Part shown: positions 9,787 to 12,471 of the stretch, one piece after another
Layout of the letters: every line of letters begins with the position of its first letter
Position numbering within the stretch: position 1 is the stretch's first letter
NCBI RefSeq assembly: GCF_000175255.2
Contig: NC_017262.1
Location: forward strand, 690,001-722,000
Length of the DNA stretch: 32,000 nt
DNA from: Zymomonas mobilis subsp. mobilis ATCC 10988
Lineage (GTDB): Bacteria; Pseudomonadota; Alphaproteobacteria; Sphingomonadales; Sphingomonadaceae
Direction of reading: 5' to 3'
The notes under the pieces: generated by a model
Told to the model about the DNA's origin: nothing
The model's input: the letters and a program-made list of their open reading frames with translations, nothing else
The model's database searches: none
Position numbers and translations under genes: made by a program

Positions 9787-9831
9787 CATAAAAAGCTTTA
9801 AAATAATAAATCTCTAAATAAAATAAAGAAA

Positions 9832-10254
9832 TTATTTTATATCTTCATGATTTCGGCTTCTGTCTATAGAGGCAAGGTCTTCTTTGTTTAAAAATCCATC
9901 ATGATCTTGATCTGCCTGATCAAAATGTCTGACCGCAGAAGCGGCATACTCATCGAAACTCAGCATGTTATCATGGTTTTTATCTAGCCGTTCAAATGCT
10001 CTTTTGCGTCCAGCTAAATATTCATCGCGGCTTATTTTCTGATCATGATCTAAATCTAGATGTTCAAAATGCCGACTAAACTTATTATTTATATAAGTAT
10101 TTTTTGCATTTTCGGCATATATTCGTACAGGAGATGTCGATTTAATTGACTTTGAAATAATATCAGATGCTCGCCCCGAGCGGCATAATAAAAATACGCC
10201 AGAAGCAATAAGAATAGCGACTCCACCTAGAATAAATGGCAATTTATCTTTCAT
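9832..10254 (-). CDS. Small membrane-anchored or secreted EF-hand calcium-binding protein
   Basis: 140 aa with an N-terminal hydrophobic segment (LPFILGGVAILIASGVFLL). Three EF-hand-like loops: DLDHDQKISRDEY, DKNHDNMLSFDEY, DQDHDGFLNKEDL. Confidence 0.65.
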   Translation of the reverse strand: MKDKLPFILGGVAILIASGVFLLCRSGRASDIISKSIKSTSPVRIYAENAKNTYINNKFSRHFEHLDLDHDQKISRDEYLAGRKRAFERLDKNHDNMLSFDEYAASAVRHFDQADQDHDGFLNKEDLASIDRSRNHEDIK

Positions 10255-10409
10255 AATCTAAAAATCTTGTCTTTAAGAAGAGAAATCGAATATTAAGATT
10301 TGTCTTTAAAAATTTTATTACTTTTTATATCAGAAAAAATGAATTTCTTCAGCATAAAAATGATGAATAATTCATAAATGCCATGAATATTTCAAATATA
10401 AAATACTGC

Positions 10410-10430
10410 CTAGGTTCTGTTGACAAAGGA
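10410..10430. repeat. Left terminal inverted repeat of the IS (CTAGGTTCTGTTGACAAAGGA)
   Basis: Reverse complement of 11244-11264 with one mismatch. Confidence 0.85.
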
Positions 10431-10485
10431 TATAATTTAAAATTTTTAGAGATAAATTGAGAACAAGTTTTGTAGGGTAGACAGG

Positions 10486-10902
10486 ATGCGAGGAGATCTG
10501 ACGGACGCGGAGTGGGAGATAATAGAGGGTCTTCTTCCAAGCGAACGAGGCCGTTGCGCGCGTCCCGCCAAAAGTAATCGGTTATTTCTCAATGGTATGC
10601 TTTATGTGCTTCGAACAGGCTGCCCGTGGCGAGACATGCATGAACGTTATGGGAAATGGAATTCGGTCTATGTTCGGTTTCGTAGGTGGGCGGAACAGGG
10701 TGTGTGGGACGCTCTTCTTGAAACCCTGGTTGACCTTGGCCTGACAGATGACTGGCAACATATGATAGATAGTACGATTATTCGCGCCCACAGCCAAGCA
10801 GCTGGCGCAAAAGGGGGACGTATAAGGAAGGCTTTGGTCGCAGCCGCGGAGGCTTTACGAGCAAGATCCACGCCCGTTCCGATGGTCAAGGCCGCCCTCT
10901 AG
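10486..10902 (+). CDS. IS5/IS427-group transposase, OrfA (N-terminal DNA-binding part)
   Basis: 138 aa beginning MRGDLTDAEWEIIEGLLP...LRTGCPWRDM, typical of the DUF4096/IS5 N-terminal domain. Confidence 0.85.
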   Translation: MRGDLTDAEWEIIEGLLPSERGRCARPAKSNRLFLNGMLYVLRTGCPWRDMHERYGKWNSVYVRFRRWAEQGVWDALLETLVDLGLTDDWQHMIDSTIIRAHSQAAGAKGGRIRKALVAAAEALRARSTPVPMVKAAL

Positions 10903-11264
10903 CTTTCGCACTAACCGGTGGTGAGGTTTCTGATTATTCTGGCGCTGATAGCTTGATAGATATCCCTGTCACAACACCCCGCTGTTTTCTCGCTGATAAA
11001 GGATATGATAGCGATAGGTTACGCGAAAAACTGCTTTTTCGAGGCATTCTTCCTGTTATCCCGCCTCGTTCCAATCGAAAAAAGCCTATTCCTTATAATC
11101 TCCAGCACTACAAAGATCGTAATCGTATTGAGCGGATGTTTAATAAGCTAAAGCAGTTCAGGCGCATTGCCACACGCTATGACAAAACCAGAAAATCTTT
11201 CCTCGCCTTCCTTCATCTCGCGGCCGTAAAATTGTGGTTACCTTCCTTTGTCAACAAAACCTAG
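10809..11264 (+). CDS. IS5/IS427-group transposase, OrfB (DDE catalytic part), reached by a -1 frame change from OrfA
   Basis: The -1 frame is open from 10773. From the A-AAA-GGG-GG run at about 10809-10817 it reads ...GRSRGGFTSKIHARSDGQGRPLAFALTGGEVSDYSGADSLIDIP... and continues into the listed 10953-11264 ORF. The exact slip site is inferred. Confidence 0.75.
   Translation, partial: KRGTYKEGFGRSRGGFTSKIHARSDGQGRPLAFALTGGEVSDYSGADSLIDIPVTTPRCFLADKGYDSDRLREKLLFRGILPVIPPRSNRKKPIPYNLQHYKDRNRIERMFNKLKQFRRIATRYDKTRKSFLAFLHLAAVKLWLPSFVNKT
11244..11264. repeat. Right terminal inverted repeat of the IS (TCCTTTGTCAACAAAACCTAG)
   Basis: Reverse complement of 10410-10430 with one mismatch. Confidence 0.85.
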
Positions 11265-11438
11265 ACAAGGTTTATTATTATCATGCTCTGGAAAACTGAT
11301 ACCAATATGCTGGCTACCCAACCGCACTAATTCTAAATGCAGTAGAGAAAATAGCTTTTCCATGATAATATGAGGGGCTATTTCCTGATTAGGTAAGATA
11401 TAGATATCCTGATAGGAATCGACAGGATTAGCTAGCAT
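11262..11438 (-). pseudogene. cas6f: cas6f (csy4) remnant: N-terminal ~59 codons only, truncated by the IS
   Basis: MLANPVDSYQDIYILPNQEIAPHIIMEKLFSLLHLELVRLGSQHIGISFPEHDNNKPCL aligns by eye with the first third of Csy4/Cas6f (MDHYLDIRLRPD...LFGKLHQALV...RIGVSFPD). The reading frame then runs into the IS inverted repeat (FVDKGR-stop). The ATG overlaps the csy3 stop codon. Confidence 0.8.
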
Positions 11439-12471
11439 CCCCAAAGACTCCCCCTCTTACTAATACAGCTATCACAAAATGCTGGTCTTCGATTGCAGGC
11501 TCTTTATCTTTTAATACCCAAGCATCCAATAAATTGTAAAAGTCTTTTTTTGCCTTTGGCTGGCGATAAGCGACCCCTTGCGTTGTAACAGAGCCATAAG
11601 GTTCAACTGCAATCGGGCCATTGATTTCGGCGTCAGGATACCATGTATCAATAGTTCTTAAGGCATTCCCAATTTTTTGAGAATGAATAGCTGCAATCGC
11701 CTTTTCATCTTGACCAACGCTGTAGAGAAAACGGCTTTTCGTGCTTTTTCCTTTATCAAGCAGCAATTCCTGCGAAGGGAATACTTCCTGTCCTGCTCCC
11801 ATGCGAATAAAAGCTTTTACGCGGAGCAAAACATGTTCCTGCCCAGCTAAGCCTGCCGTTATCAGTTTCGCCAAGGCTTCTAACTCTTCTGAAACTGACT
11901 TCTCTTCAAATTGACGGAGAGGATGCGCTAATGCATCAAAAATACCGACTAGAGTTGATTCCTCACCGCTTAATCGAGTTATTTGAATAGATATAGCATC
12001 CGCACCCAAGCGATTCCGCCATAGGAAACGACCATTTGCCAAATTAGCAGCGTATCGATTCCCTAAAATATCAAGTCCATGAGTATCAATATAATGGCTG
12101 ATAGTAGCCACTAATTTAGAACGATACTCCATACTATTACAGGCAGCAGGCTCACCAACGCCGCCCAAAACACGCAAAGTAAATTCTACTTTCAGTGTAT
12201 CACTATCAAAAGGCAGCGTCGCAACATCCACCGTTTGCAGATTGGGCTTTTCGATAGCCGCCTTCAACTTGATTGGATCATCTCCAGTCTTTGAAGGAAT
12301 ACGGTTGGAAATTGTGCCACGAACCGATTTTTCGCGCAAATGAATTGGTTGCCATGCCGTATCATCGTCTTTGTCGCTCCAATTACCAGAAAAAAACAAA
12401 GCATCGGAAGGATCTAATTTACGCTCAAAAGATAGAACAGACGCTGTTTTTAAATTCTTTTCTTCAGACAT
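11428..12471 (-). CDS. csy3: Type I-F Cascade backbone subunit Csy3 (Cas7f)
   Basis: ASVLSFERKLDPSDALFF, REKSVRGTISNR, ANLANGRFLWRNR, IHSQKIGNALRTIDTWYP and IAVEPYGSVT closely parallel P. aeruginosa Csy3. Start taken at ATG 12471 (MSEEKN), not the upstream 12504. Confidence 0.93.
   Translation of the reverse strand: MSEEKNLKTASVLSFERKLDPSDALFFSGNWSDKDDDTAWQPIHLREKSVRGTISNRIPSKTGDDPIKLKAAIEKPNLQTVDVATLPFDSDTLKVEFTLRVLGGVGEPAACNSMEYRSKLVATISHYIDTHGLDILGNRYAANLANGRFLWRNRLGADAISIQITRLSGEESTLVGIFDALAHPLRQFEEKSVSEELEALAKLITAGLAGQEHVLLRVKAFIRMGAGQEVFPSQELLLDKGKSTKSRFLYSVGQDEKAIAAIHSQKIGNALRTIDTWYPDAEINGPIAVEPYGSVTTQGVAYRQPKAKKDFYNLLDAWVLKDKEPAIEDQHFVIAVLVRGGVFGDAS

What the first reader, a model, noticed from the sequence alone, without database searches (positions are those of the whole stretch)
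10255..10430. The far flank of the IS does not resume cas6f, implying an IS-associated deletion
A simple insertion would leave the rest of cas6f immediately beyond the left IS end. Instead, the minus strand below 10410 reads an AT-rich 155-bp stretch with multiple stops. This stretch leads directly to the EF-hand gene start at 10254. About 125 codons of cas6f, and whatever followed it, are therefore absent. In I-F loci an array with its leader usually follows cas6f. This pattern suggests an adjacent deletion or recombination between two IS copies rather than plain insertion. The TA/CTAG at both junctions is uninformative, because this IS group targets such sites.
Basis: partly seen in the sequence, partly recalled or inferred. 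Interest (0 to 1): 0.7.

Follow-up and report, generated by a model that had tools for sequence, protein, structure and literature searches.

The report
IS-linked 673-bp deletion truncating cas6f
In the Zymomonas mobilis type-strain lineage, a small mobile element sits where 673 bases were lost, removing two thirds of the CRISPR RNA-processing gene cas6f; this is a real but ordinary kind of transposon-mediated gene loss.

Summary
The window comes from Zymomonas mobilis subsp. mobilis, ATCC 10988 lineage (99.99% identical to strain uvs51, VFOI01000001.1).

**What is in the window**
- On the minus strand, cas1-cas2/3-csy1-csy2-csy3 is followed by only the first 60 codons of cas6f.
- Next comes an 849-bp IS5-family element at 10413-11261. 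It has IS427-group features: GG...CC ends, 17-nt inverted repeats, a -1 frameshifted transposase and flanking TA.
- The AT-rich 10255-10412 stretch is the native upstream region of the EF-hand gene.

**What is missing**
- Nine intact sister strains have a 193-aa cas6f and no IS.
- Relative to them, exactly 673 bp are missing: 405 bp of cas6f and 268 bp of spacer.
- No CRISPR array was lost. This species keeps its arrays elsewhere.

**Why the IS is implicated**
- Both deletion endpoints are native CTAG sites, two of only three in that 1-kb interval.
- At least 12 other copies in the same genome all sit in YTAG with a TA duplication.

The IS therefore made the deletion, either by intramolecular transposition or by recombination between two nearby copies. 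The final sequence cannot tell these apart.

PacBio and independent assemblies exclude misassembly.

This is an ordinary mechanism, and this instance appears to be unreported. Interest is low to moderate.

The parts
11428..12471 (-). csy3 (cas7f), intact; the last complete gene of the type I-F operon
   Evidence: TIGR02566, 453 bits. The 347-aa product was found by exact look-up on 5 contigs, all carrying the IS junction.
11238..11438 (-). Truncated cas6f/csy4 ORF of 66 aa. Its 60 native codons occupy 11438-11259, and the last glycine codon is completed by bases from the IS end. Six IS-encoded codons (FVDKGR) and a stop follow.
   Evidence: TIGR02563 profile positions 2-46 of 184. The translation is identical to residues 1-60 of the 193-aa Cas6f of sister strains. 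The exact protein is TQL27962.1 / WP_041573366.1.
11262..11263 (.). TA at the cas6f-side junction, part of the native cas6f CTAG site. It also forms the first two bases of the transposase stop codon TAG (11262-11264).
   Evidence: Junction alignment with L002-L010. The same TA|G follows all 12 other copies.
10413..11261 (+). 849-bp IS5-family insertion sequence with IS427-group features. The inverted repeats GGTTCTGTTGACAAAGG and GGTTTTGTTGACAAAGG match at 16 of 17 positions. G+C is 48% against 44% for the window.
   Evidence: Inverted repeat I1. Boundaries were defined by alignment to 12 other copies in the same chromosome. G+C and repeat comparison.
10486..11264 (+). Transposase gene of 259 aa, made by a -1 frameshift at the A-AAA-G run near 10809-10814. 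ORF A is 10486-10902; the ORF B frame runs to 11264.
   Evidence: NF033580 matches positions 2-111 on ORF A and 170-258 on ORF B. The reconstructed slip product equals database protein P0121 (AEH62440.1, TQL27963.1) exactly. Pfam gives DUF4096 plus a DDE_Tnp_1 domain.
10411..10412 (.). TA at the EF-hand-side junction, part of the native distal CTAG site.
   Evidence: L003, L004 and L010 have ATACTAGGCAGT at this point with no IS.
10255..10410 (-). Native AT-rich upstream region of the EF-hand gene (20% G+C). This is the 'far flank' of the finding, not cas6f and not a CRISPR leader.
   Evidence: It aligns end to end with L004 9828-10000, apart from two short indels. No CRISPR repeat was found.
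9832..10254 (-). EF-hand calcium-binding protein gene (140 aa), the native downstream neighbour of the cas operon in all strains.
   Evidence: Pfam EF-hand_1, _5, _6 and _7 all score above their cut-offs. The exact protein lies beside cas6f in L002-L010.

Best explanation
An 849-bp IS5-family element of IS427-group type marks an IS-made 673-bp deletion in the Z. mobilis ATCC 10988 lineage.

The ancestral sequence read cas6f (582 bp), then about 440 bp of AT-rich spacer, then the EF-hand gene. It held two CTAG sites 673 bp apart. One was in cas6f codons 58-59 (TGT-CTAGG-AAGC). The other was 171 bp upstream of the EF-hand start (ATA-CTAGG-CAGT).

The IS inserts only into YTAG and duplicates the TA. 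Today its two ends abut the outer half of each site, and everything between them is gone.

Two routes give exactly this product:
- (a) Insertion at one site, followed by intramolecular replicative-type transposition of the same copy into the second CTAG. This releases the intervening DNA as a circle and is the classical 'adjacent deletion'.
- (b) A second, same-orientation copy inserted at the other site, followed by homologous recombination between the two copies.

I favour (a) slightly, at roughly 50:35.

The consequence, which is inferred and not tested, is loss of 133 of the 193 Cas6f residues. The lost part includes the arginine-rich RNA-binding helix and the C-terminal half of the fold. 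Pre-crRNA can then no longer be processed or loaded, so type I-F interference should be dead. cas1, cas2/3 and csy1-3 remain intact ORFs.

Shown directly: the deletion, its exact endpoints, the target rule of the IS, and the multi-copy state of the IS. Inferred: the order of events, the route, and the phenotype.
For: 1. **Deletion defined.** L002 1-9158 aligns to window 20421-11260, and L002 9832-20253 aligns to window 10408-1. Synteny is conserved on both sides. The TA-to-TA distance is 673-674 bp in 8 intact loci. The lost DNA is 405 bp of cas6f plus 268 bp of spacer.
2. **Endpoints at target sites.** Both endpoints are native CTAGG sites. The 1021 bp between the cas6f start and the EF-hand start hold only three CTAG sites (L004 8983, 9154, 9827), and the endpoints are the last two. 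CTAG is depleted in the window, 44 seen against 121 expected.
3. **Target rule of the IS.** Twelve other copies on VFOI01000001.1 are each flanked by TA within CTAG (10 copies) or TTAG (2 copies). Three francensis copies follow the same rule.
4. **The family is active here.** Seven copies are 100% identical. An IS-bounded rearrangement also distinguishes the sibling laboratory strains CU1 and uvs51.
5. **Not a misassembly.** The truncated 66-aa allele and its IS are on three contigs longer than 1 Mb and two Logan short-read contigs, one of which stops about 25 nt inside the IS. The uvs51 genome is a PacBio >10-kb-library HGAP assembly. Protein accessions place the same transposase variant (AEH62440.1) and the same truncated Cas6f (WP_041573366.1) in the ATCC 10988 records.
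6. **Not translocated.** The missing segment is not in the window, and not within 2 kb of any of the 12 other copies.
7. **What Cas6f lost.** The alignment to P. aeruginosa Csy4 (2xli) is end to end. It places QAKSSPARLRRRAIRRH and everything after residue 60 in the lost part.
Against: - The final sequence is equally compatible with routes (a) and (b), and with a microhomology deletion. No strain with an intermediate state was found: every contig with this lineage's csy3 allele already has the deletion.
- The transposition chemistry of IS427-group elements has not been characterised. Adjacent deletion is documented, to my knowledge, for IS903 (another IS5-family group) and IS1, not for this group.
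- The cas6f copy differs at 15-17 positions from every other copy, so its own activity is unproven. Its 17-nt inverted repeats are identical to those of the active copies, though, so it could be mobilised in trans.
- I could not search the complete ATCC 10988-lineage genome for the missing 673 bp. Only the window and the 2-kb flanks of 12 IS copies were searched.
- Loss of interference is predicted, not measured.
Confidence: 0.85

Rival explanations
1. Microhomology (slippage) deletion between the two native 5-bp CTAGG repeats, independent of transposase. Either the deletion came first and the IS then inserted into the single remaining CTAG as a plain insertion with a genuine TA duplication. 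Or the IS inserted at the cas6f CTAG, and a later RecA-independent deletion joined its CC-TA-GG end to the distal CTAGG.
For: Both native sites read CTAGG. The present sequence is therefore exactly what a simple insertion into a pre-deleted CCTTGT-CTAGG-CAGT would give. Flanking TA is present on both sides, as for every simple insertion of this IS.
Against: - It needs two independent events to coincide at one position.
- A 1-kb region has several hundred 5-mer repeat pairs (my estimate). There is no reason for slippage to pick the one pair that is the IS target.
- On the window's density of 44 CTAG per 32 kb, I estimate that the IS would then have to choose that one CTAG out of roughly 2,800 in a 2-Mb genome.
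- There is no selection for the second event, because the first already kills cas6f.
- No IS-free deleted allele was seen among the contigs retrieved.
Confidence: 0.07
2. Assembly artefact. The real genome has two IS copies flanking the 673-bp segment, or an intact cas6f, and the assembler collapsed the repeat.
For: The IS has at least 13 copies in this chromosome. The Logan short-read contig breaks inside it, so short-read assemblies could in principle mis-join.
Against: - The matching assembly was made from PacBio Sequel >10-kb-library reads, which span an 849-bp repeat many times over.
- The same junction is on three separate contigs longer than 1 Mb from different strains of the lineage. 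It is also in the older ATCC 10988 protein records.
- The cas6f IS copy has 15 private substitutions spread from position 18 to position 789. It is therefore a unique sequence rather than a collapsible exact repeat.
Confidence: 0.02
3. Large-scale rearrangement. Recombination between the cas6f IS copy and a distant copy, by inversion or translocation, moved the cas6f 3' part elsewhere in the genome. It would be displaced rather than deleted.
For: IS-bounded rearrangements do occur in this lineage. L103 and L106 share the IS and one flank but not the other.
Against: - The DNA beyond the IS is the native neighbour that lies only 673 bp downstream in intact strains. Synteny then continues for more than 10 kb. 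An inversion or translocation would bring in foreign flanks.
- The missing segment is not within 2 kb of any of 12 other copies.
Confidence: 0.03

Closest known systems
IS-mediated adjacent deletion (intramolecular replicative transposition), classically described for IS1 and for IS903 of the IS5 family
   Same: One IS copy remains. One flank is unchanged. The other flank is a nearby target site of the element, and the intervening DNA is lost. No informative target duplication is left.
   Different: The mechanism has not been demonstrated for IS427-group elements. Here the strict YTAG/TA target makes the product indistinguishable from IS x IS recombination or from a simple insertion.
IS427 group of the IS5 family (ISfinder grouping)
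   Same: A small element (849 bp) with two overlapping ORFs fused by a programmed -1 frameshift into a DDE transposase. PMC3281130 describes exactly this for IS427-group elements. It has a 2-bp duplication, GG termini and a TA-centred target.
   Different: No ISfinder name could be assigned here because that database is not available. The nearest full-length transposase outside Zymomonas is 84% identical (Komagataeibacter saccharivorans). Z. mobilis plasmid copies are 92-96.5% identical in DNA. The transposase stop codon is supplied by the target (TA+G).
Type I-F CRISPR-Cas of Z. mobilis ZM4 (Zheng et al. 2019, PMC6868425)
   Same: The same operon order, cas1-cas2/3-csy1-csy2-csy3-csy4, at 97-98.5% DNA identity. 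The arrays lie at separate loci.
   Different: In the ATCC 10988 lineage, csy4/cas6f is cut to 60 native residues, so the system is predicted to be non-functional for crRNA maturation. Papers that survey the species say only that the I-F system or a Cas3 homologue is present in almost all or all subsp. mobilis genomes. In the passages retrieved, they do not mention this lesion.
Inactivation of cas genes by insertion sequences in other bacteria
   Same: A mobile element disrupts one essential cas gene and leaves the rest of the locus intact.
   Different: Here the insertion comes with a short deletion that also removes the operon's 3' end and its terminator-like hairpin.

Membership tests
IS5 family, IS427 group | DDE transposase of the IS5 type | tested here: met
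   NF033580 (IS5 family transposase) scores 136.6 bits on ORF A against a cut-off of 110. ORF B, at 103.3 bits, covers profile positions 170-258. Pfam gives DUF4096, DDE_Tnp_1 and DDE_Tnp_1_2 on the fused protein.
IS5 family, IS427 group | Two overlapping ORFs joined by a programmed -1 frameshift | tested here: met
   ORF A (10486-10902) and the -1 frame ORF B (ending at 11264) overlap. The fusion product that slips at A-AAA-G is an exact match to database protein P0121. PMC3281130 gives this as the group's feature. The frameshifting itself was not shown experimentally.
IS5 family, IS427 group | Short terminal inverted repeats, size 800-1000 bp, 2-4 bp target duplication | tested here: met
   The element is 849 bp. 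Its 17-nt inverted repeats match at 16 of 17 positions. A TA duplication flanks 12 other copies in the genome. The size and duplication ranges for the group are from my memory of ISfinder.
IS-mediated deletion (adjacent deletion or IS x IS recombination) | DNA that is contiguous in relatives is missing precisely at an IS end, with synteny kept on both sides | tested here: met
   673-674 bp are missing relative to 8 intact loci (L006 not located), and more than 9 kb of collinear sequence lies on each side.
IS-mediated deletion (adjacent deletion or IS x IS recombination) | The far endpoint is a bona fide target site of the element | tested here: met
   The distal endpoint is CTAG in L003, L004 and L010. 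The element's target is YTAG in 12 of 12 other copies.
IS-mediated deletion (adjacent deletion or IS x IS recombination) | Flanking repeats differ because the flanks come from two different target sites | tested here: inconclusive
   The duplication is always TA, so hybrid flanks cannot be told from a true duplication.
IS-mediated deletion (adjacent deletion or IS x IS recombination) | Observed intermediate (single insertion or two flanking copies), or an excised circle | tested here: not met
   All 5 contigs with this lineage's csy3 allele already carry the IS plus the deletion. All other strains retrieved lack the IS. Absence of an intermediate does not contradict the model. It only leaves the route unresolved.
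[quoted passage not shown] | Complete Cas6f endoribonuclease | tested here: not met
   Only 60 of 193 residues remain. The region aligned to the arginine-rich helix and the C-terminal half of P. aeruginosa Csy4 is lost.
[quoted passage not shown] | cas1, cas2/3, csy1, csy2 and csy3 intact | tested here: met
   All five score far above the NCBIfam cut-offs with full-length profile coverage. Their lengths equal those in sister strains.
[quoted passage not shown] | CRISPR array adjacent to cas6f | tested here: not met
   No repeat was found in the window or in nine intact loci, allowing up to 7 mismatches. This holds for the species as a whole and is not a result of the deletion. Arrays at distant loci could not be examined here.

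The most novel reading that the evidence does not exclude
The Z. mobilis type strain ATCC 10988 and its derivatives would be natural Cas6f-null mutants whose loss was selected rather than neutral. The selective reason could be escape from self-targeting, or tolerance of this lineage's own plasmids that its orphaned arrays would otherwise target. The IS, an old and diverged copy, would be the instrument. This would make the lineage a ready-made natural control for I-F interference and adaptation studies in an industrial organism.
Probability: 0.15. Interest if true: 0.4.

Novelty: new member of a known kind. Interest (0 to 1): 0.25.

Why it matters
- **Practical.** The endogenous I-F system of Z. 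mobilis is used for genome editing in ZM4, and it is stated to be usable across the species (PMC6868425). The type-strain lineage (ATCC 10988, CU1, CU1rif2, uvs51) lacks a working cas6f, so endogenous-CRISPR tools should fail there unless cas6f is supplied in trans.
- **Annotation.** The 66-aa product is listed under the name 'type I-F CRISPR-associated endoribonuclease Cas6/Csy4', the same name as the full-length protein.
- **Conceptual.** This is a clean, fully delimited example of an IS with a strict tetranucleotide target producing a deletion whose two ends are both target sites. It adds no new principle.

Tried and rejected
- **CRISPR array or leader in the deleted DNA.** Rejected. No I-F repeat was found in the window, in nine intact loci allowing up to 7 mismatches, or by TRF. 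No Rfam family matches L004 8900-10100 apart from a sub-threshold chance snoRNA hit.
- **Exact-protein look-ups of transposase ORF A and ORF B.** Not on record.
- **First reconstruction of the frameshift product (…GAKGGTY…).** The alternative slip (…GAKRGTY…) is the recorded protein.
- **First IS right-end coordinate (11271).** This was wrong by 10 bp. It was corrected to 11261 after aligning the other copies.
- **Split Cas6f entries P0145 and P0146 (119 aa and 64 aa) as a possible single-insertion intermediate.** Rejected. They are residues 1-119 and 130-193, which indicates a gap or frameshift at a different position, not an insertion at the CTAG site.
- **Identical IS copy on a plasmid as the source.** None found. 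The best plasmid match is 96.5%.
- **The one genome-contig scan.** It returned subsp. francensis AN0101 as the species representative rather than the ATCC 10988 lineage. It could not be used for a whole-genome search for the missing segment.
- **Chimeric IS as a trace of recombination with a burst-type copy.** Not seen. The 15 private differences span positions 18-789.

Full report
**What is at the coordinates**

The window (44% G+C) carries a complete type I-F cas operon on its minus strand, up to csy3:
- cas1, 19366-18329
- cas2/3, 18332-14892
- csy1, 14879-13545
- csy2, 13533-12520
- csy3, 12504/12471-11428

All five have full-length NCBIfam matches far above cut-off.

The next ORF (11438-11238) matches only profile positions 2-46 of the 184-position Csy4/Cas6f model. 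Its last six codons (FVDKGR) are read from an insertion sequence.

The IS is delimited by 17-nt inverted repeats, GGTTCTGTTGACAAAGG and GGTTTTGTTGACAAAGG. Its boundaries were fixed by alignment to other copies, giving 10413-11261, 849 bp and 48% G+C.

It encodes an IS5-family DDE transposase in two overlapping frames. The -1 slip product at the A-AAA-G run is an exact match to a recorded 259-aa Z. mobilis transposase, P0121 = AEH62440.1/TQL27963.1. Two overlapping ORFs with a conserved frameshift motif are the stated hallmark of the IS427 group of the IS5 family (PMC3281130).

Left of the IS, 10255-10412 is AT-rich (20% G+C over 10255-10410). It runs directly into the start of a 140-aa EF-hand protein gene at 10254-9832 on the minus strand.

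**Where the window comes from**

An exact-protein look-up of the EF-hand protein returned a locus 99.99% identical to the window (L001). It is GCA_006716005.1, contig VFOI01000001.1.

According to Table 1 of PMC8088579, this is Zymomonas mobilis strain uvs51. It is a laboratory derivative of the type strain ATCC 10988, through CU1 and CU1rif2. It was sequenced on PacBio Sequel from a >10-kb library and assembled with HGAP4.

**The deletion, defined by comparison**

The same look-up returned nine loci from other Z. mobilis strains (L002-L010). In these, a 193-aa cas6f is intact, no IS is present, and the EF-hand gene starts about 440 bp after the cas6f stop.

By BLASTN, L002 1-9158 equals window 20421-11260, and L002 9832-20253 equals window 10408-1. 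Both flanks are collinear for more than 9 kb.

The junctions read as follows:

| Position | Strains | Sequence |
|---|---|---|
| cas6f site | intact strains | ...CCTTGT-CTAGG-AAGCCG... |
| distal site | L003, L004, L010 | ...AAATA-CTAGG-CAGTATTTT... |
| both, minus strand | window | ...CCTTGTC-TA-[IS]-TA-GGCAGTATTTT... |

The TA-to-TA distance in intact strains is 673 bp (674 in two of them). The lost DNA is 405 bp of cas6f (133 codons plus the stop) and 268 bp of 24%-G+C spacer.

What remains at 10255-10412 aligns end to end with the proximal 173 bp of the intact spacer, apart from two short indels. It is simply the EF-hand gene's own upstream region.

**What was not lost**

In this species they do not.
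- No I-F repeat occurs in the window.
- No match to the Z. mobilis repeat GTTCACTGCCGCACAGGCAGCTTAGAAA, with up to 7 mismatches, occurs in the window or in any of the intact loci.
- TRF and Rfam find nothing in the relevant stretch.
- In ZM4 the four arrays are described as separate loci (PMC6868425).

The deleted spacer holds only two minor features. One is a terminator-like hairpin overlapping the cas6f stop. The other is an unannotated 76-aa ORF without family matches.

**Why the IS is responsible**

Using transposase variants from the protein cluster, I retrieved 12 further copies of the element from the same 1.73-Mb contig.
- Every copy is flanked by TA. The tetranucleotide target is CTAG in 10 copies and TTAG in 2. 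Three copies in subsp. francensis follow the same rule.
- In an intact strain, the 1021 bp from the cas6f start to the EF-hand start contain only three CTAG sites. The two deletion endpoints are exactly the second and third.
- CTAG is strongly under-represented in this DNA, 44 observed against 121 expected in the window.

A deletion unrelated to the IS would have no reason to begin and end at the element's target. A deletion made by the element must do so.

The family is demonstrably active in this lineage. Seven copies are identical over all 849 bp. One copy has the same right flank but an unrelated left flank in the sibling strains uvs51 and CU1 (L103 against L106).

**Which route**

Three routes give this exact sequence.
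- (a) A copy at one CTAG attacks the second CTAG on the same molecule, by intramolecular replicative-type transposition (adjacent deletion).
- (b) Two same-orientation copies, one at each CTAG, recombine homologously.
- (c) Slippage between the two native CTAGG pentamers, before or after a simple insertion.

I rank (c) low, at about 0.07. It requires two unrelated events to coincide on one of roughly 2,800 CTAG sites in the genome, and on one of several hundred possible 5-mer repeat pairs in the region. Both figures are my own estimates. There is also no selection for the second event.

Between (a) and (b) I lean slightly to (a). The cas6f copy is the sequence outlier of the family, with 15-17 substitutions against every other copy, spread from position 18 to 789. 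It is therefore not a chimera with a burst-type copy. Route (b) would need a second copy of this otherwise unique variant. No intermediate allele exists among the retrievable contigs, so this stays an inference.

**Artefact and translocation**

The truncated 66-aa allele was found by exact look-up on three contigs longer than 1 Mb and on two short-read Logan contigs. One of these, from SRR066225, ends about 25 nt inside the IS, as expected for a repeat.

The protein accessions tie both the specific transposase variant and the truncated Cas6f to ATCC 10988 records as well as to the PacBio assemblies. Long reads, independent data sets and a sequence-unique IS copy together make a collapsed repeat very unlikely.

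The missing segment gives no hit in the window or within 2 kb of any of the 12 other copies. I could not search the whole genome, because the single genome-collection scan returned subsp. francensis as the species representative.

**Consequence (inferred)**

Z. mobilis Cas6f aligns end to end with P. aeruginosa Csy4 (2xli, E = 1e-43). Everything from residue 61 onwards is lost. This includes the segment aligned to the arginine-rich stretch (QAKSSPARLRRRAIRRH) and the whole C-terminal half.

From established knowledge of type I-F systems, Cas6f cleaves pre-crRNA and stays bound to the 3' hairpin as a subunit of the Csy complex. The lineage should therefore lack interference despite its intact cas1, cas2/3 and csy1-3.

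Published surveys report the I-F system or Cas3 homologues as present in (almost) all subsp. mobilis genomes. They also report CRISPR repeats common to all eight strains compared, ATCC 10988 included. In the passages retrieved, none mentions this lesion.

**Verdict**

The mechanism is a textbook kind, IS-mediated deletion inactivating a gene.

The instance appears unreported. It has practical relevance for anyone using endogenous CRISPR tools, or comparing defence systems, in the Z. mobilis type-strain lineage.

Interest is 0.25. Novelty: a new member of a known kind.

Noticed in passing
window 11262-11264, and the same position in L095-L109: The transposase stop codon TAG lies outside the 849-bp element. 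It is built from the duplicated TA plus the G of the YTAG target, so the ORF is closed by the target sequence in every copy examined.
   Followed up: partly
window 10413-11261 compared with L095-L109: The cas6f copy is the sequence outlier of its family in this genome. It differs at 15-17 positions from all 12 other copies. Seven of those are 100% identical to each other, which points to a recent burst.
   Followed up: yes
L103 (VFOI01000001.1, about 532 kb) and L106 (VFOH01000001.1, about 1174 kb): The sibling laboratory strains uvs51 and CU1 share this IS copy and its right flank but have unrelated left flanks. This is an IS-bounded rearrangement that arose within a mutagenised strain pedigree.
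   Followed up: partly
L095 3496-4292, L099 3184-3980, L108 1-535, L109 4340-4779: A second IS5-family element with a 265-aa transposase, repeated at more than 99.7% identity, sits within 1-2 kb of several copies of the first IS.
   Followed up: no
L004 9578-9808 and 9535-9555 (DNA absent from the window): The deleted spacer of intact strains holds an unannotated 76-aa GTG-start ORF with no Pfam match. It also holds a terminator-like hairpin overlapping the cas6f stop codon.
   Followed up: partly
L005 1117-2089 and L010 1111-2089: cas1 is split into two or three ORFs in two other Z. mobilis assemblies (GCA_024329495.1 and SRR8244582). This is either further independent erosion of the I-F locus or sequencing error.
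   Followed up: no
L002, L005, L007-L009 around 9826-9830, compared with L003, L004, L010: The distal CTAG target site is polymorphic in the species: CTAGG in some strains and CTGGT in others. Not every strain offers the second target needed for this deletion.
   Followed up: partly
window 9898-10071: Three 30-nt repeats spaced 72 bp apart lie inside the EF-hand gene. They correspond to its repeated calcium-binding loops. The protein has a weak, sub-threshold NCBIfam resemblance to lanmodulin (38 bits against a cut-off of 135).
   Followed up: partly
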